A stretch of 31,966 nucleotides of DNA, taken from the IMG/VR virus record IMGVR_UViG_3300029875_000335, one strand, 5' to 3'. Below the pieces are notes generated by a model. It worked only from the letters and a program-made list of their open reading frames with translations, was not told the origin of the DNA and searched no databases. The stretch is from a virus. Its lineage: Duplodnaviria > Heunggongvirae > Uroviricota > Caudoviricetes > Peduoviridae. Below are positions 3,510-24,224 of the stretch, piece by piece. The translations under genes were made by a program, and so were the position numbers. Numbering within the stretch: position 1 is the stretch's first letter; the number at the start of each line of letters is the position of its first letter.

Positions 3510-5781
3510 AGCCTCCGGGCGTTTTGTCCCTCCGTCAGCATTTGCCGCAGGCACCGGTGAGACGTTTACCGGTGCTTATGCATGGAACGCGCCACGCGAG
3601 GCCGTCGGGCGCGAAAGACCCCTTACACGTGACGAGATGCGTCAGGTGCAAGGTGTTTTATCCACGATTAATCGCCTGCCTTACTTTTTGCGCTCGCTGT
3701 TTACTTCACGCTATGACTACATCCGGCGCAATAAAAGCCCGGTGCACGGGTTTTATTTCCTCACATCCACTTTTCAGCGTCGTTTATGGCCGCGCATTGA
3801 GCGCGTTAATCAGCGCCATGAAATGAACACCGACGCGTCGTTGCTGTTTCTGGCAGAGCGTGACCACTATGCGCGCCTGCCGGGAATGAATGACAAGGAG
3901 CTGAAAAAGTTTGCCGCCCGTATCTCATCGCAGCTTTTCATGATGTATGAGGAACTCAGCGATGCCTGGGTGGATGCGCATGGCGAAAAAGAATCACTGT
4001 TTACGGATGAGGCTCAGGCTCACCTGTATGGTCATGTTGCTGGCGCTGCACGAGCTTTCAATATTTCCCCTCTCTACTGGAAAAAATACCGTAAAGGACA
4101 GATGACCACGAGGCAGGCTTATTCTGCCATTGCCCGTCTGTTTAACGATGAGTGGTGGACTCATCAGCTTAAAGGCCAGCGTATGCGCTGGCATGAGGCG
4201 TTACTGATTGCTGTCGGGGAGGTCAATAAAGACCGTTCTCCTTATGCCAGTAAACATGCCATTCGTGATGTGCGTGCGCGCCGCCAGGCAAATCTGGAGT
4301 TTCTTAAATCATGTGACCTTGAAAACAGGGAAACCGGCGAGCGCATCGACCTTATCAGTAAGGTGATGGGCAGTATTTCTAATCCTGAAATTCGCCGGAT
4401 GGAGCTGATGAACACCATTGCCGGTATTGAGCGTTACGCCGCCGCAGAGGGTGATGTGGGGATGTTTATCACGCTGACCACGCCGTCAAAGTATCACCCG
4501 ACACGTCAGGTCGGAAAAGGAGAAAGTAAAACCGTCCAGCTTAATCACGGCTGGAACGATGAGGCATTTAATCCAAAGGATGCGCAGCGTTATCTCTGCC
4601 GCATCTGGAGCCTGATGCGCACGGCATTCAAGGATAATGATTTACAGGTCTACGGTTTGCGTGTCGTCGAGCCCCACCACGACGGAACGCCGCACTGGCA
4701 TATGATGCTTTTTTGTCATCCACGCCAGCGTAACCAGATTATCGAAATCATGCGTCGCTATGCGCTCAAAGAGGATGGTGACGAAAGAGGAGCCGCGCGA
4801 AACCGTTTTCAGGCAAAGCACCTTAACCGGGGCGGTGCTGCGGGATATATCGCGAAATACATTTCAAAAAACATCGACGGCTATGCACTGGATGGTCAGC
4901 TCGATAACGATACCGGCAGGCCGCTGAAAGACACTGCCGCGGCTGTTACCGCATGGGCGTCAACGTGGCGCATTCCGCAATTTAAAACGGTTGGCCTGCC
5001 GACAATGGGGGCTTACCGTGAACTACGCAAATTGCCTCGCGGCGTCAGCATTGCTGATGAGTTTGACGAACGCGTCGAGGCTGCACGCGCTGCCGCAGAC
5101 AGTGGTGATTTTGCGTTGTATATCAGCGCGCAGGGTGGGGCAAATGTTCCGCGCGATTGTCAGACTGTCAGGGTTGCCCGTAGCCCGTCGGATGAAGTTA
5201 ACGAGTACGAGGAAGAAGTCGAGAGAGTGGTCGGCATTTACGCGCCGCATCTCGGCGCGCGTCATATTCATATCACCAGAACGACGGACTGGCGCATTGT
5301 TCCGAAAGTGCCGGTCGTTGAGCCTTTGACTTTAAAAAGCGGCATCGCCGCGCCTCGGAGTCCTGTCAATAACTGTGGAAAGCTCACCGGTGGTGATACT
5401 TCGTTACCGGCTCCCACGCCTTCTGAGCACGCCGCAGCAGTGCTTAATCTGGTTGATGACGGTGTTATCGAATGGAATGACCCGGAGGTCGTGAGGGCGC
5501 TCAGGGGCGCATTAAAACACGGCCTGAGAAGACCAAACCGTCAGCAAAGAAACGGAAGCCCGTTAAAACCGCATGAAATAGCGCCATCGGCCAGACTGAC
5601 CCGGTCGGAAAGAATGCAAATTACCCGTATCCGCGTTGACCTTGCTCAGAACGGTATCAGGCCGCAGCGATGGGAGCTTGAGGCGCTGGCGCGTGGTGCG
5701 ACCGTAAATTACAACGGGAAAAAATTTACGTATCCGGTCGCTGATGAGTGGAGTTGGTTTTATTGTTATTCAGAGCAATAA
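3499..5781 (+). CDS. A: Replication initiation protein A (rolling-circle HUH endonuclease)
   Basis: 760-aa product from the ATG at 3499 (MAVKASGRF...), matching P2 gpA in length; HUH-like motif EPHHDGTPHWHMMLF and active-site tyrosine region GYIAKYISKN. Confidence 0.9.
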   Translation: MAVKASGRFVPPSAFAAGTGETFTGAYAWNAPREAVGRERPLTRDEMRQVQGVLSTINRLPYFLRSLFTSRYDYIRRNKSPVHGFYFLTSTFQRRLWPRIERVNQRHEMNTDASLLFLAERDHYARLPGMNDKELKKFAARISSQLFMMYEELSDAWVDAHGEKESLFTDEAQAHLYGHVAGAARAFNISPLYWKKYRKGQMTTRQAYSAIARLFNDEWWTHQLKGQRMRWHEALLIAVGEVNKDRSPYASKHAIRDVRARRQANLEFLKSCDLENRETGERIDLISKVMGSISNPEIRRMELMNTIAGIERYAAAEGDVGMFITLTTPSKYHPTRQVGKGESKTVQLNHGWNDEAFNPKDAQRYLCRIWSLMRTAFKDNDLQVYGLRVVEPHHDGTPHWHMMLFCHPRQRNQIIEIMRRYALKEDGDERGAARNRFQAKHLNRGGAAGYIAKYISKNIDGYALDGQLDNDTGRPLKDTAAAVTAWASTWRIPQFKTVGLPTMGAYRELRKLPRGVSIADEFDERVEAARAAADSGDFALYISAQGGANVPRDCQTVRVARSPSDEVNEYEEEVERVVGIYAPHLGARHIHITRTTDWRIVPKVPVVEPLTLKSGIAAPRSPVNNCGKLTGGDTSLPAPTPSEHAAAVLNLVDDGVIEWNDPEVVRALRGALKHGLRRPNRQQRNGSPLKPHEIAPSARLTRSERMQITRIRVDLAQNGIRPQRWELEALARGATVNYNGKKFTYPVADEWSWFYCYSEQ

Positions 5782-5853
5782 ACATCTGATTTAATTTGTT
5801 GCATAATAGTAAAATTGCTGTTTATCTGCATGTGTTAACTATTGATAATTATG

Positions 5854-5881
5854 TTGCTAATAATGTGTGCAAATTTATACT
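5854..5881 (+). promoter_or_regulatory. Putative sigma70 promoter for cargo gene 1
   Basis: TTGCTA, 16-nt spacer, TATACT, then AAGGTG RBS 6 nt upstream of the ATG at 5898. Confidence 0.35.
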
Positions 5882-5897
5882 GAAAAAGGTGAAAACG

Positions 5898-7730
5898 ATG
5901 AATGATATCTTTGTTCTTACAAGGGAAGAGCTTGAAACACTAGATTATAGTGTTTTTATGCATATACCAGTTACATTTCATGCACATAAAATAAAAAAAT
6001 ATCTGGATGGGATTGCTGAATCATCAGAAAACCCCAAAGAGAAAAAATTAGCATCTCTTTTTGGTATGCTATATAGTTTCAATTTGCAAGTTGTTAACAA
6101 CACTCCATCATTTGAACCCCAAATGATTTGGGGTAATAAAAGATCAATATTGCCTGAAGATTTTGATGAGCAGGTGAATGACTGTCTTTTATATGTTTCT
6201 CAAAAAATAACCAATCCATTTTTGTTATCAAGAATATATGATGTTGTTTGGTGTAATAATCGGAAAAATAAAGACGTGGCAATTAAAGCAATTGATTCCT
6301 ATGCTGAAATGCTAAATATAGCAATTGAAAAGCTAATAATAAAAAACGAAAGCATGGATGAAAGTGATTTAAATTGCTTTATTTTTGCTCGTGATTATAT
6401 TGCTAGGGCTTTGCACATTAATAAAATGGTCTACCCTAGAAAATCAGAAGGAAACATGGCGATTAAAAATGCCATTCATTCTCTTTATAGTATTCAAAAT
6501 GAAAGATTAATCTTTGAAGGTTTCAATAATTTGACTTGGTTTATGGTGCGTGATTTTGATGGGTATAATCTGCAGTATGCGGAAAATGCTGAGAAGATGG
6601 CTGAGCAGCATAAAGATAAAAAATATTATGATGCTGTAAAATCACTTTATATGACAAGTGCAGTTATTTATGAAAAAAATGGTGAGTATGAACGTGCCAA
6701 GAGATGTAAACTGGCATCTGCAAATATTACTATTAAAGTTGCAACAGATCGACCTGATAATATGGGTAAGATCTCTTGGTTAAGAACAGCTATCTCTGAA
6801 TTAAGACAGTACGGTGGTGATAGCCAACAGATAGAAGATTTAAAGGAACAACTTGCTAATTTGAGAGAAGAAGTAAGGAGTGAATATGTCACTTTAAGCC
6901 ATTCTATTGATATTAGTGACTTGGTTGCTGAAAGTGAAAAAAAACTGACGGGGCGTTCTTTGCCCGATATATTCAAAGTTTTAATGAGTGAAACACCGAT
7001 TGAAAATATTGAAAGCATGAGGGAACAAGTTTTAAAATTATCAGAAAAAAGTTTATTCTCTAGTTTTGTTGGAACAGAAATTAATGATGAGAGTGGGCGT
7101 AAGATATATACAATCCCGCCGTTGGATAATAAAAAAGATATGAGTGATGATGTTGTTATTGATCAATATCTAAGAAATTTCGAGATTACTCATAAGATTT
7201 TTGTAAACGGTGTCTTTGAACCTGCTCGCTATGTACTTTCTCAAGAACATGGCTTGACGTTGTCAACATTCGTTAAATTGGTTACAACTAGTCCAATTGT
7301 CAAGCCGGAGTTTAGGGAGATTTTTAATTTGGGCTTTTACAAATTATGGCAGGGAGATTACATCAGTGCAGCTTATCTTTTAATACCACAAATGGAAGGT
7401 ATGGTTCGTTATTATTATGAGCTTAGCGGAAAGGATGCTACTAGATATTTGGATAAGGGATTAGAGGAGTCAACAAGTATTTCTCAGCTTCTAGATAAAT
7501 GCAGAGATGATTTGGAAAGTATCTTTTCTAAAAATCTTGTTTTGACTATCGATGTTCTTTTTAACAGAAAGAGTGGGGCAACCTTAAGACATAAATTAGC
7601 ACATGGTAATTTATATACTAATGCTTGTTACGATGAAACAACGACATATGCATGCATCCTGATTTTCTTTCTGTGTGCTTATCCTCTCCTACCATATTTT
7701 GATACTGTTTTTGAACAGGGCTCTGTTTGA
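5898..7730 (+). CDS. AT-rich orphan cargo protein at the tin/old locus; candidate anti-phage protein
   Basis: 610-aa ORF between A and cos, visibly low in GC against the backbone; own promoter and RBS; no Walker A P-loop, so not Old-like; R-H-K-L-A-H (R-x4-H) at residues 564-569 (7587..7604). The upstream TTG at 5796 is an unlikely start. Confidence 0.75.
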   Translation: MNDIFVLTREELETLDYSVFMHIPVTFHAHKIKKYLDGIAESSENPKEKKLASLFGMLYSFNLQVVNNTPSFEPQMIWGNKRSILPEDFDEQVNDCLLYVSQKITNPFLLSRIYDVVWCNNRKNKDVAIKAIDSYAEMLNIAIEKLIIKNESMDESDLNCFIFARDYIARALHINKMVYPRKSEGNMAIKNAIHSLYSIQNERLIFEGFNNLTWFMVRDFDGYNLQYAENAEKMAEQHKDKKYYDAVKSLYMTSAVIYEKNGEYERAKRCKLASANITIKVATDRPDNMGKISWLRTAISELRQYGGDSQQIEDLKEQLANLREEVRSEYVTLSHSIDISDLVAESEKKLTGRSLPDIFKVLMSETPIENIESMREQVLKLSEKSLFSSFVGTEINDESGRKIYTIPPLDNKKDMSDDVVIDQYLRNFEITHKIFVNGVFEPARYVLSQEHGLTLSTFVKLVTTSPIVKPEFREIFNLGFYKLWQGDYISAAYLLIPQMEGMVRYYYELSGKDATRYLDKGLEESTSISQLLDKCRDDLESIFSKNLVLTIDVLFNRKSGATLRHKLAHGNLYTNACYDETTTYACILIFFLCAYPLLPYFDTVFEQGSV

Positions 7731-22481: not shown

Positions 22482-23009
22482 ATGCAGCATTTAAAAAACA
22501 TTAAGTCAGGTAATCCAAAAACAAAAGAACAATATCAGCTAACAAAGAATTTTGATGTTATCTGGTTATGGTCCGAAGACGGAAAAAACTGGTATGAGGA
22601 AGTAAGTAATTTTCAGGAAGACACGATAAAGATTGTTTACGATGAAAATAATATTATTGTCGGCATCACCAGAGATGCTTCAACGCTCAACCCTGAAGGT
22701 TTCAGCGTTGTCGAGGTTCCTGATATTACCGCCAACCGACGTGCTGATGACTCAGGGAAATGGATGTTTAAGGATGGTGCCGTGATTAAGCGGATTTATA
22801 CGGCAGACGAACAGCAACAACAGGCAGAATCACAAAAGGCCGCGTTACTTTCCGAAGCGGAAAGCGTTATTCAGCCACTGGAGCGCGCTGTCAGGCTGAA
22901 CATGGCAACAGATGAGGAGCGTAGCCGACTGGAAGCATGGGAACGCTACAGTGTTCTGGTCAGCCGTGTGGATCCTGCAAATCCTGAATGGCCGGAAATG
23001 CCGCAATAA
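22482..23009 (+). CDS. G: Tail fibre assembly chaperone
   Basis: 175 aa directly after H; C-terminal ...[12 protein letters not shown] typical of tail fibre assembly proteins; matches P2 gpG length. Confidence 0.85.
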
Positions 23010-23398
23010 GTGATATGATCTCTTGTGTTAGTTAACATAGCTATAGTACAGAGTAAGGCCTAATCTGACAGTCCGCTCTGTGCTAGGAGCGGACATTATC
23101 AACATCATGCTATGTTAATGTATAAAGTGAAGATAAATTGATATAATAAGGCCACCATGAATATTTCAGAACCTTGTCAAAAGGTTTGCACATACTCTAG
23201 TCTTGCAATGTGTAGTTGATAGTTCCACTGAGGAGGTTCTTCGACATTCTTTATAAAAATGTACATTTTCATCAATAATAAGAGGTAAAAGGGCTTTAAT
23301 AGTTTTTTGTGGATGTTATGTCCACTCATAAATTTTGAGATAAGTATTGAGTTGAGATAAAGTTAAACTCGTTAAATTCACCTTTAAAAGGATAAAGC

Positions 23399-23926
23399 AT
23401 GGACTGGAAAGATCTTGCATCAACCGCTGTGTATACAGGTATGACTGATGAAAATGAAAACATATGGGGACGTGTTGATGGGGTTGACGTTGCCTTCATA
23501 GGTGCCTTTCTTACTGCGCACTTGAGCCTTGAAAAGTATATTACTGATTATCTTGGATTAAGATATCCTTCGTTAGCTTGGGGTGATGCAAAACTCACAT
23601 TTTCACAAAAAATAGCTTTAATACAACATGAGCCTGCAAAACCCCCTTATGATGAAATATATTTAAGAATAAAAGACTTTAACAGCATAAGAAATAAAAT
23701 CAGTCATCAATTGAATTATCAGATTACGGATAAAGAAAAAAGTAAGTTTGTGGACTTCTACATGAAGATTACTAAAGCCAGTAAAACTAAACCAAATATT
23801 GATATTGATAACATGGCGGATTTGTTGGATTTTTTCGTATCGATGACAAAATCCTATTTTGCTAGTGCTATTTCTTATTATCACTATAATAAAAAGGTTG
23901 CAGGTAAAAGTAATAAAATTGATTAA
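23399..23926 (+). CDS. AT-rich orphan cargo protein at the Z/fun locus; candidate anti-phage / lysogenic-conversion protein
   Basis: 175-aa ORF in a strongly AT-rich island between G and FI; AAGGA RBS; R-N-K-I-S-H (R-N-x3-H) at residues 98-103 (23690..23707). Confidence 0.75.
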   Translation: MDWKDLASTAVYTGMTDENENIWGRVDGVDVAFIGAFLTAHLSLEKYITDYLGLRYPSLAWGDAKLTFSQKIALIQHEPAKPPYDEIYLRIKDFNSIRNKISHQLNYQITDKEKSKFVDFYMKITKASKTKPNIDIDNMADLLDFFVSMTKSYFASAISYYHYNKKVAGKSNKID

Positions 23927-24101
23927 TAAAACTGGACTTAGGGATAATTAATATATAGACGTTCTATCATTTTTAGAGTGTGCGGCAGCTCCATACATTC
24001 ATGCGGATGTCAGCACCTCGCTCAAAGCAGACAGTCAGATTTGATAGCGTTTGGACTATGTAAATAGTCAGTTGGAAAATGAGTGAGTACAAATCAGGAC
24101 A

Positions 24102-24129
24102 GGCGGGCGAATTGCCCGCCTTTTCTTTA
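24102..24129 (+). terminator. Rho-independent terminator upstream of FI
   Basis: Hairpin GGCGGGCGAATTGCCCGCC (24102..24120) followed by TTTTCTTTAT. Confidence 0.6.
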
Positions 24130-24224
24130 TCTGTTGTTTCATCCACTGACCAGCCAGGTCAAATAGCGCCTCATACTCTGCACAACAGAAAATAATTGCA
24201 CCCATTAACCACGGAGTTAAACGG

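What the first reader, a model, noticed from the sequence alone, without database searches (positions are those of the whole stretch)
23010..23398. Unusually long AT-rich non-coding leader with a stable hairpin upstream of cargo gene 2
Seen in sequence: 389 bp without a credible ORF (only an approximately 20-codon reading frame from the ATG at 23157), strongly AT-rich, with a perfect 8-bp stem hairpin GTCCGCTC-TGTGCTAG-GAGCGGAC at 23071..23094 and repeated GAGATAA-like words near 23336..23370. Inference: intergenic regions this long are unusual in a tightly packed phage genome. It could hold the promoter and regulator binding sites for the cargo gene, a small RNA or RNA antitoxin, or be a silencing (H-NS-type) target typical of horizontally acquired AT-rich DNA.
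Basis: inference. Interest (0 to 1): 0.45.

Follow-up and report, generated by a model that had tools for sequence, protein, structure and literature searches.

The report
Cassette boundary site plus decayed gene
The "long leader" is not a regulatory RNA: it is the left end of a small AT-rich gene cassette in a P2-like phage, made of a conserved palindromic boundary site, the wreck of a lost upstream gene and the surviving gene's own short promoter; the same boundary site also marks the ends of swappable gene cassettes in other phages, plasmids and chromosomes of enteric bacteria.

Summary
There is a 389-bp gap (23010-23398, 33% GC), an exact 8-bp hairpin at 23071-23094 and repeated TTGAGATAA words.

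The window is a P2-like phage. The gap lies at the classical Z/fun moron site, between tail genes G and FI.

1. The hairpin is not specific to this cargo. It is the left junction (the "L site") of every insert at this site in nine reference P2-like phages and 65 viral contigs. An inverted partner, the "R site", lies at 24009-24032.
2. Positions 23063-23302 are about 83% identical to the L site, promoter and first ~175 nt of a 170-aa upstream gene that is intact in Citrobacter, Dryocola and Superficieibacter. Here three deletions (19, 5 and about 555 nt) have destroyed it.
3. Positions 23303-23398 are the only part kept upstream of all eight close homologues compared. They carry a promoter-like element and a Shine-Dalgarno sequence.

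There is no sign of a structured RNA. The cargo protein has a HEPN fold and is a likely defence gene.

Wider lead: L/R sites bound cassettes with base-exact edges, form arrays of defence genes, and occur in 24% of E. coli genomes and in 415 plasmids. They also bracket a 200-aa tyrosine recombinase gene. This link is inferred, not shown.

The parts
22482..23009 (+). gpG, the tail fibre assembly gene. It is the left backbone gene of the P2 Z/fun site.
   Evidence: Pfam Caudo_TAP 1e-36. Annotated as GpG in the 100%-identical phage ON470601.
23010..23070 (.). Outer part of the 'left inverted repeat' of the Z/fun site, ending in AATCTGACA (23062-23070). It is mirrored by AGTCAGATT at 24033-24041.
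   Evidence: Conserved in 9 P2-like phages with unrelated cargos. Annotated as the left inverted repeat in GenBank AJ512685. Pair I1 is 80% complementary. Similar outer flanks occur at non-P2 loci.
23071..23097 (.). This is the left boundary of the cassette.
   Evidence: dG -9.2 kcal/mol, z -4.1. Identity between phages stops within a few bases after it. 105 viral contigs carry it, 65 with the P2 flank, followed by more than 20 unrelated cargo starts. Both stem and loop are conserved in 100 distinct copies.
23139..23147 (+). TGATATAAT, an extended -10-like element upstream of the lost gene (candidate promoter P_A).
   Evidence: Read from the sequence. The surrounding 23098-23156 is about 85-90% identical to the region upstream of the intact gene in L006, L007 and L009. 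Function is inferred. With this -10 the transcript would start about 3 nt before the ATG.
23157..23302 (+). Relic of the upstream gene 'geneA' (170 aa when intact). There is a 19-nt deletion between 23211 and 23212 (frameshift, stop at 23217-23219), a 5-nt deletion between 23264 and 23265, and a deletion of about 555 nt between 23302 and 23303.
   Evidence: blastn gives 83% identity to L007 and L009; alignment. MNISEPCQKVCTYSSLAMCS matches MNTSEHCKEVYAYFGLAMYRA, and IVPLRRFFDILYKNV (shifted frame) matches IVQLLIFFDFFTKNV. No E. coli genome holds an intact copy.
23303..23398 (+). Proximal control region of the cargo gene. It holds the TTGAGA words (23335-23340 and 23352-23357), a -10-like TAAATT (23373-23378; TGnCAATAT in relatives) and the Shine-Dalgarno AAGGA (23388-23392).
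   Evidence: This is the only part of the gap alignable in all eight close homologue loci. The consensus scan lists TTGAGA-17-TAAAGT at 23335-23363. Promoter activity is inferred.
23399..23926 (+). Cargo gene: a 175-aa HEPN-fold protein with invariant R98, N99 and H103 (RNKISH).
24009..24041 (.). R site (GTCAGCACCTCGCTCAAAGCAGAC, three mismatches to the consensus) plus the outer flank AGTCAGATT. This is the right boundary of the cassette.
   Evidence: No stable hairpin here (z = 0.3).
24101..24131 (+). Intrinsic terminator in the conserved backbone, just upstream of the F-operon promoter and FI (24225-).
   Evidence: 9-bp stem followed by a T run. Conserved in all 9 phages. It is the only terminator-like site between G and FI.

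Best explanation
The 389 bp are a composite scar, not a leader RNA.

The window is a P2-like phage. At its Z/fun site, between tail genes G and FI, it carries a cassette of about 960 bp at 34% GC, running from the L site to the R site. From left to right the finding contains:
(b) the promoter region and the frameshifted, truncated first third of a 170-aa gene that precedes the cargo gene in related two-gene cassettes;
(c) about 95 nt kept in all eight close relatives compared, holding the cargo gene's own promoter-like element and ribosome-binding site.

Shown: the homologies, the deletions, the conserved junctions, and the base-exact cassette edges in other loci.

Inferred:
- In a lysogen the HEPN-fold cargo is transcribed from the proximal promoter, giving a 5' UTR of roughly 15-30 nt. 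During lytic growth it is also read through from the late V-G operon, because no terminator lies between G and position 24101.
- L and R are recombination sites. The likely enzyme is a site-specific tyrosine recombinase supplied in trans; the candidate is a 200-aa enzyme whose gene is itself bracketed by an R and an L site in other replicons.
- This particular cassette may no longer move, because its R site is degenerate.
For: Location and known repeats: 100% match to Peduovirus ON470601 with GpG and GpFI flanking. GenBank AJ512685 annotates left and right inverted repeats at this site.

Junctions: nine phages with unrelated cargos share sequence up to ...GCGGAC(A)TT on the left and from GTCCGCTTCTCGCTCAAAGCAGAC on the right. 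In 105 viral contigs the L site is followed by more than 20 different sequences. L lies 53 or 65 nt after the G stop and R about 215 nt before FI.

Gene relic: blastn and alignment to intact two-gene cassettes in L006, L007 and L009, three deletions, and peptide similarity. No intact copy exists in 5,426 E. coli genomes.

Proximal region: conserved upstream of all eight close homologues compared. The L-to-ATG distance varies from 70 to 304 nt.

No RNA element.

The same cargo sits between L and R sites at loci without P2 genes in five other genera.

Exact edges:
- A 2,993-bp cassette is shared at 99.6% by L073 and L086 from the first base of L to the last base of R, with unrelated flanks.
- A 4,268-bp insert in E. 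coli Nissle, compared with strain M-17, is flanked by a direct repeat of L.
- Most of the 1,269 E. coli genomes that match the Nissle query begin their homology exactly at the first base of L; only 169 keep the full arrangement.

Recombinase: the gene lies between an R site 39 nt upstream and an L-type site 18 nt downstream in four replicons whose further flanks differ.
Against: No transcript data exist, so which promoter drives the cargo is not known. P_A could still produce a long 5' UTR running across the relic.

Among 11 near-identical copies, 23005-23189 has no variable site while the rest of the gap has 14. This may reflect constraint on the L site and P_A region, or recent recombination.

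Counts on 100 distinct sites show no covariation beyond shuffles. A folded hairpin is therefore not demonstrated, and the site could equally be read as duplex DNA.

The recombinase link rests on physical linkage only. The gene is absent from this window and from deposited P2-like phage records. Exchange by short-homology recombination at the 24-27-bp sites is not excluded.
Confidence: 0.8

Rival explanations
1. The stretch is a true long 5' untranslated leader, or it encodes a small RNA or RNA antitoxin, that regulates the cargo gene.
For: A perfect extended -10 (TGATATAAT, 23139-23147) lies about 250 nt upstream of the cargo ATG. No terminator-like site lies between it and the gene. 23005-23189 is invariant in 11 copies.
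Against: Folding energy is no better than shuffles on either strand (z -0.38 and +0.63). Rfam gives no match near a gathering score. The middle of the stretch is recognisably a frameshifted coding sequence with three deletions. Serratia and Yersinia homologues have only 70 and 195 nt between the L site and the ATG. The gap varies at least as much as the coding sequence.
Confidence: 0.07
2. The hairpin works at the RNA level for the phage itself, as a 3'-end or stability element, or a weak terminator, of the late V-W-J-I-H-G operon. On this view it is conserved because it belongs to the P2 backbone, and cargos are swapped by ordinary homologous recombination in G and FI.
For: It lies 62 nt after the G stop in the sense orientation and is stable. 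It is conserved in all nine reference P2-like phages. In P2-like phages the flanking genes give ample homology for exchange.
Against: No T run follows it, and the terminator scan does not list it. The P2 record places the V-operon terminator elsewhere.

The same 24-bp site, with its loop sequence conserved, flanks the same cargo at loci without any P2 gene. It forms R-spacer-L doublets between tandem cassettes. It occurs in 1,298 E. coli genomes and 415 plasmids. It marks base-exact edges of a chromosomal insertion polymorphism.
Confidence: 0.12
3. The AT-rich stretch acts mainly as an H-NS nucleation site that silences the acquired cargo gene. This is compatible with the best explanation and is not exclusive of it.
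For: 33% GC in a 51.5% GC phage. AT-rich acquired DNA is the usual H-NS target in E. coli (established knowledge).
Against: The whole cassette, coding sequence included, has the same composition, so nothing singles out the gap. No binding data are available here.
Confidence: 0.35

Closest known systems
P2 Z/fun moron locus with flanking inverted repeats (Nilsson, Karlsson & Haggard-Ljungquist 2004, Mol Biol Evol 21:1; GenBank AJ512685 and related records)
   Same: The position between G and FI is the same. The left and right inverted repeats annotated in AJ512685 align to window positions of about 22982-23094 and 24010-24100. The insert is AT-rich foreign DNA predicted to have its own promoter.
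   Different: The cargo is different: a HEPN-fold orphan plus the relic of a second gene. The paper could not be read here, so I cannot say how much of the wider pattern it already reports (tandem arrays, doublets, plasmid and chromosomal copies, linked recombinase). Its title shows that site-specific recombination and a link to other enterobacteria were already proposed.
Integron gene cassettes and attC sites
   Same: In related loci, single- or two-gene cassettes, many encoding defence-type proteins, stand in arrays separated by imperfect palindromic junctions of about 66 nt. One insertion is flanked by a duplicated site, as expected from integration of a circle. A tyrosine recombinase gene sits next to such sites.
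   Different: No IntI is present: the candidate recombinase has 200 aa and scores 15.9 bits on the integron-integrase model against a cut-off of 265. No RYYYAAC/GTTRRRY cores exist; only RTT after the site is conserved. Cassettes have genes on either strand and appear to carry their own promoters. The junction is two 24-bp palindromes with a spacer of about 18 nt.
REP / REPIN / BIME repeats
   Same: Short palindromes occur as inverted doublets in intergenic DNA.
   Different: Copy number is low: a median of 1 and a maximum of 4 per carrying E. coli genome, in 24% of genomes. There is no GTAG head. The sites lie at the edges of accessory modules on phages and plasmids as well.
HepS (Gifsy-1 prophage HEPN defence protein) and the HEPN fold in general (MtlR/YggD, HepT toxins). 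This applies to the cargo protein.
   Different: Only 13-17% identity to the structural matches. No Pfam or PADLOC family is hit. Neither RNase nor defence activity has been tested.

Membership tests
P2 Z/fun-site insert (moron between G and FI) | Lies between the tail fibre assembly gene G and the tail sheath gene FI of a P2-like phage | tested here: met
   G at 22482-23009 and FI from 24225.
P2 Z/fun-site insert (moron between G and FI) | Bounded by the conserved left and right inverted repeats | tested here: met
   Annotation of AJ512685, alignment of 9 phages, pair I1.
P2 Z/fun-site insert (moron between G and FI) | Base composition unlike that of the phage backbone | tested here: met
   33.9% GC for the cassette against 51.5% for the window.
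Pseudogene remnant | Nucleotide and peptide homology to an intact gene elsewhere, with the reading frame broken | tested here: met
   83% identity to L007 and L009. Deletions of 19, 5 and about 555 nt. Premature stop at 23217-23219.
Intrinsic (rho-independent) terminator | G+C-rich stem-loop directly followed by a run of T | tested here: not met
   The stem is present, but it is followed by ATTATCAACATC. The scan does not list it.
Described RNA family (Rfam 15) | Match reaching the family's gathering score | tested here: not met
   The best matches within 23010-23398 are BsrC at 18.5 bits (gathering score 38) and DUF2693 RNA at 16 bits (gathering score 81.3).
Structured cis-regulatory leader or sRNA (generic) | Folding energy beyond shuffled controls, and conservation across homologous loci | tested here: not met
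   z = -0.38 and +0.63. Only the last ~95 nt are conserved.
Integron cassette / attC | IntI-type integrase and attI next to the array | tested here: not met
   None in the window. The linked 200-aa recombinase scores 15.9 bits against a cut-off of 265 on TIGR02249.
Integron cassette / attC | R''/R' core sites (RYYYAAC ... GTTRRRY) | tested here: not met
   Position counts for 100 sites show only RTT conserved after the palindrome.
Integron cassette / attC | Arrays of cassettes separated by imperfect palindromic sites | tested here: met
   L104, L101, L107, L095, L098 and L061. Not in this window, which holds a single cassette.
REP / REPIN | High-copy extragenic palindrome with a conserved GTAG head | tested here: not met
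   Median of 1 place per carrying genome. No GTAG.
ERIC / IRU repeat | Sequence similarity to the ERIC element | tested here: not met
   An E. coli ERIC copy compared with the left, right and doublet sequences shares only 7-9-nt words, E >= 0.2.
HEPN superfamily (cargo protein) | Rx4-6H motif | tested here: met
   R98, N99 and H103 are invariant in 21 sequences.
HEPN superfamily (cargo protein) | HEPN helical fold | tested here: met
HEPN superfamily (cargo protein) | RNase activity or anti-phage phenotype | not testable with these tools
   Needs experiment.
Site-specific recombination site of a tyrosine recombinase | Recombinase shown to bind or cleave the site, with the crossover mapped | not testable with these tools
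   Only indirect support: base-exact edges and a recombinase gene bracketed by R and L sites in four replicons.

The most novel reading that the evidence does not exclude
The hairpin is one copy of a recombination site belonging to a little-studied, integron-like cassette exchange system of Enterobacterales.

Cassettes of about 0.7-6 kb are bounded by an L site and an inverted R site. Many encode defence proteins (SIR2, AbiJ, HEPN, GIY-YIG); others encode metabolic or iron-uptake modules. They insert at L sites as circles carrying an R-spacer-L junction. They stack into arrays and move between P2-like phages, conjugative plasmids and chromosomal islands.

On this reading the enzyme is a 200-aa tyrosine recombinase made of the catalytic domain only (WP_001305361 family), whose own gene lies inside an expanded R-L doublet. 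If so, this would supply the missing mechanism for the swapping of hotspot genes between P2-like phages and other mobile elements. A 2026 survey (PMC13586616) lists that mechanism as unexplained.
Probability: 0.4. Interest if true: 0.85.

Novelty: new member of a known kind. Interest (0 to 1): 0.55.

Why it matters
For this window the result is sobering. A long non-coding gap in a packed phage genome turns out to be a dead gene plus a junction sequence, so no new regulator needs to be invoked.

The junction is the useful part. P2-like phages are known reservoirs of anti-phage genes, and how those genes are swapped with unrelated elements is stated to be unknown (PMC13586616, Discussion). A conserved 24-bp site with the following properties turns that question into a bench experiment:
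- it delimits cassettes to the base;
- it stacks them in arrays;
- it recurs in a quarter of E. coli genomes and in hundreds of plasmids;
- it brackets a small recombinase gene.

The site could also serve as a search key for finding new defence genes.

Tried and rejected
- Rfam scans of the region and of a three-doublet array gave nothing at threshold.
- RNA folding of both strands showed no excess structure.
- Covariation in the hairpin, counted on 100 distinct sites, was not above shuffles. I therefore do not claim that a folded structure has been shown.
- ERIC/IRU identity was rejected after fetching a real ERIC copy.
- Canonical attC cores are not present.
- Terminator: no T run.
- Pfam and PADLOC gave nothing for the cargo.
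- Profile comparison of the lost gene with the cargo family was not significant, with probability 3%. I therefore do not call them paralogues, although the upstream gene in Pectobacterium is a 33%-identical paralogue of the cargo.
- Literature: Nilsson 2004 is not held. Papers citing it give no detail. No held paper prints the site sequences or the recombinase accessions. The H-NS preprint could not be opened.
- Distant cargo homologues (58-68% identity, L132-L135) sit in other phage hotspots without L/R sites, so the sites do not go with the gene family as a whole.
- Two distant recombinase homologues were checked. One has an R-like palindrome just after its stop; the other is a pseudogene without obvious sites. 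This is anecdotal only.
- The genome-contig scan returned only 3 loci.

Full report
**Setting**

The window is a P2-like phage. A 1.4-kb query across the finding matches Escherichia phage vB_EcoM-569R9 (ON470601) at 100%. It matches about a hundred other Peduoviridae only in its two ends, which are the tail fibre assembly gene G and the tail sheath gene FI. The finding therefore lies at the classical Z/fun moron site of P2. A GenBank record for this site in another P2-like prophage (AJ512685, from the 2004 study of Nilsson et al.) annotates a 'left inverted repeat', a 'right inverted repeat' and a promoter for its cargo. The window aligns to both repeats.

**Observation**

All stated features are present.
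- G ends at 23009 and the 175-codon cargo ORF starts at 23399.
- The gap is 33.4% GC against 51.5% for the window. The cargo gene (33.0%) and the whole cassette (33.9%) have the same composition.
- The hairpin at 23071-23094 is exact. As DNA it folds at -9.2 kcal/mol, z = -4.1, and 0 of 200 shuffles fold as well.
- TTGAGATAAG and TTGAGATAAAG lie at 23335 and 23352.
- RefSeq annotates nothing in the gap in three E. coli genomes that carry the same island.

**The hairpin is a shared junction**

I aligned nine P2-like phages whose G-FI inserts are unrelated: P2 fun(Z), Wphi orf44, L-413C, pro147, P22H4, P24E6b, P2_AC1, EC67 and this window.
- On the left they are alike up to ...AATCTGACA-GTCCGCTCTGTGCCAGAAGCGGAC-(A)TT and diverge directly after it.
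- On the right, likeness resumes at GTCCGCTTCTCGCTCAAAGCAGAC-TGTCAGATT. It then continues through a terminator and the F promoter region.

I call the two 24-bp palindromes L and R. They are inverted copies of each other that differ consistently in the centre: TGTGCC in L, and TGAGCG in R when read in the same sense.

A scan of IMG/VR for L found 105 contigs. In 65 of them L follows the P2-type flank. The sequence after L falls into more than 20 unrelated classes. L sits 53 or 65 nt after the G stop and R about 215 nt before FI.

In 100 distinct copies the loop is as conserved as the stem, and pair counts show no covariation beyond shuffles. The site therefore behaves as a sequence-specific element. 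Whether it acts folded or as duplex DNA is open.

**Most of the gap is a dead gene**

The cargo protein has 24 homologue clusters, all from Enterobacterales. In Superficieibacter, Dryocola and Citrobacter a 170-aa gene stands between the L site and the cargo homologue.

Window 23063-23215 is 83% identical to that L site, its promoter region and the first codons of this gene. Window 23218-23306 continues into the gene at 71-78% identity.

The alignment shows three deletions in the window:
- 19 nt between 23211 and 23212, which shifts the frame and creates the stop at 23217;
- 5 nt between 23264 and 23265;
- about 555 nt between 23302 and 23303, which removed the rest of the gene and most of the spacer.

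The next stretch still reads IVPLRRFFDILYKNV in a shifted frame, against IVQLLIFFDFFTKNV.

None of 5,426 complete E. coli genomes has the intact gene. All 50 carriers match only its first 134 nt. In Yersinia and Serratia the cargo homologue stands alone, 195 and 70 nt after L. It therefore does not depend on the lost partner.

**The conserved part**

Only the last ~95 nt (23303-23398) align in all eight close homologue loci. They hold a TTGAGA word and, 15 nt later, TAAATT, which is TGnCAATAT (an extended -10) in most relatives. The Shine-Dalgarno AAGGA lies 6 nt before the ATG. The consensus scan lists TTGAGA-17-TAAAGT in the same place.

I infer that this is the working promoter and that the real 5' UTR is short. 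A second candidate is the perfect TGATATAAT at 23139-23147, which belonged to the lost gene. It may still fire, and I cannot exclude a longer transcript.

No terminator-like site lies between G and 24101, so late transcripts probably run through the cassette.

**No RNA element**

Rfam gives nothing near a gathering score. Folding energies of both strands equal those of shuffles.

Among 11 near-identical copies the gap has 14 variable positions in 389 nt and the coding sequence about 20 in 528. However, 23005-23189 has none. I cannot explain this beyond constraint on the site and promoter, or recent recombination.

**The cargo**

**Beyond P2**

The cargo homologue is bracketed by L and/or R at loci with no other P2 protein within 3-4 kb. 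These are in Superficieibacter, Dryocola, Citrobacter, Pectobacterium, Yersinia and Serratia. Several of these loci also keep the outer flanks (cctaatctg... and ...tgccagattt).

Between tandem cassettes, R and L form a doublet with a spacer that is usually 18 nt (start-to-start spacing 36-45 nt). Arrays of three to five cassettes occur in more distant P2-like contigs. Their genes include SIR2, AbiJ, HEPN_LA2681 and GIY-YIG domains.

A 69-nt doublet query finds 1,298 of 5,426 E. coli genomes (945 full length, a median of one place each). It also finds 415 plasmids of Klebsiella, Enterobacter, Pantoea, Citrobacter and others. The hits lie in intergenic DNA between accessory modules.

**Exact edges**

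- Two phage contigs share a 2,993-bp cassette at 99.6% identity, from the first base of L to the last base of R. Their flanks are unrelated.
- At one chromosomal locus, E. coli M-17 has flank-L-iron uptake module. E. coli Nissle has flank-L-(4,268 bp)-R-spacer-L-same module. The M-17 sequence aligns to Nissle up to the last base of the first L, and again from the first base of the second L.
- Most of the 1,269 E. coli genomes that match the Nissle query begin their homology to the iron-uptake module exactly at the first base of L; 169 keep the full Nissle arrangement.

This is the pattern left when a circle carrying an R-spacer-L junction integrates at an L site.

**A candidate enzyme**

The Nissle insert encodes a 200-aa tyrosine recombinase made of the catalytic domain only (Pfam Phage_integrase 5e-19, far below the cut-offs of the Xer, IntI and invertase models).
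- The same protein (95-98% identity) lies inside L-R units of five viral contigs.
- The gene is in 863 E. coli genomes and, at 90% identity or more, in about 60 plasmids from nine genera.
- In four replicons its ORF is bracketed by an R-type site 39 nt upstream and an L-type site 18 nt downstream. Beyond these two sites the replicons are unrelated.
- It is absent from this window and from deposited P2-like phages.

The link is physical only. I rate it a good lead, not a finding.

**Comparison with what is known**

The inverted repeats of the Z/fun site and the idea of site-specific recombination date from 2004. I could not read that paper, so the wider pattern may be partly known.

A 2026 survey of P2 and P4 hotspots states that the mechanism of exchange with other elements is unknown. 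It considers transposons, flanking homology and illegitimate recombination, and it mentions no repeats.

The sites are not ERIC, not canonical attC, not high-copy REP and not in Rfam.

**Verdict**

The finding itself is ordinary and largely explained. It consists of a known junction repeat, a pseudogene remnant and a short promoter region, in a new cargo variant of a known site. Its interest lies in the junction site.

Noticed in passing
window 5600-7600: A second strongly AT-rich block (30-38% GC) sits in a 52% GC phage. It is presumably the other cargo island of this P2-like phage. It was not examined for L/R-type sites or gene content.
   Followed up: no
window 23882-24131: There are sub-threshold Rfam matches to the Salmonella Hfq-binding sRNAs STnc150 (22.3 bits, gathering score 60) and isrF (14.5 bits, gathering score 40). 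They cover the cargo 3' end, the R site, the right outer repeat and the terminator. The aligned parts are the TCAGATTTGATAG flank and the terminator. Those sRNAs may therefore derive from a similar right-end region in Salmonella.
   Followed up: partly
L129 2775-7066 (E. coli Nissle) compared with L136 6001-6024 (E. coli M-17): A 4,268-bp insertion polymorphism is flanked by a direct repeat of the 24-bp L site. The insert encodes a 200-aa tyrosine recombinase, an ETEC_3214-family protein and two orphan proteins.
   Followed up: partly
L129 4262-4984; L138, L139 and L140 4923-5645: In four unrelated replicons the small recombinase gene is bracketed by an R-type site 39 nt upstream and an L-type variant 18 nt downstream. 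The downstream site overlaps a 9-bp palindrome, CAGGGCTGC-AAYA-GCAGYCCTG.
   Followed up: partly
L011 2284-2784 (Pectobacterium): The gene upstream of the cargo homologue is here a 33%-identical paralogue of the cargo itself. It has weak Pfam hits to DUF4145 and HEPN_Cthe2314. In Citrobacter, Dryocola and Superficieibacter the upstream gene is an unrelated orphan that also carries an R-N-x3-H motif.
   Followed up: partly
L003 1805-2333; L005 2805-5506: The cargo gene is itself broken in 2 of the 50 E. coli carriers. It is split into two CDS in strain ST2350 and interrupted by an IS66-family element in strain TK3046.
   Followed up: no
L002 (ON470601), within the cargo CDS, about window 23701-23711: The deposited phage record has a run of N inside the cargo gene. 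This makes its annotated CDS 552 nt instead of 528 nt.
   Followed up: yes
window 23005-23189: There is no variable position among 11 near-identical copies, while the following 209 nt of the gap have 14. The cause is unknown.
   Followed up: no
L133, L134, L135: More distant members of the cargo family (58-64% identity) sit in other hotspots of P2/186-like phages: next to the cI repressor, between ogr and gpA, and after a tail fibre gene. They have their own TATAAT boxes and no L/R sites.
   Followed up: partly
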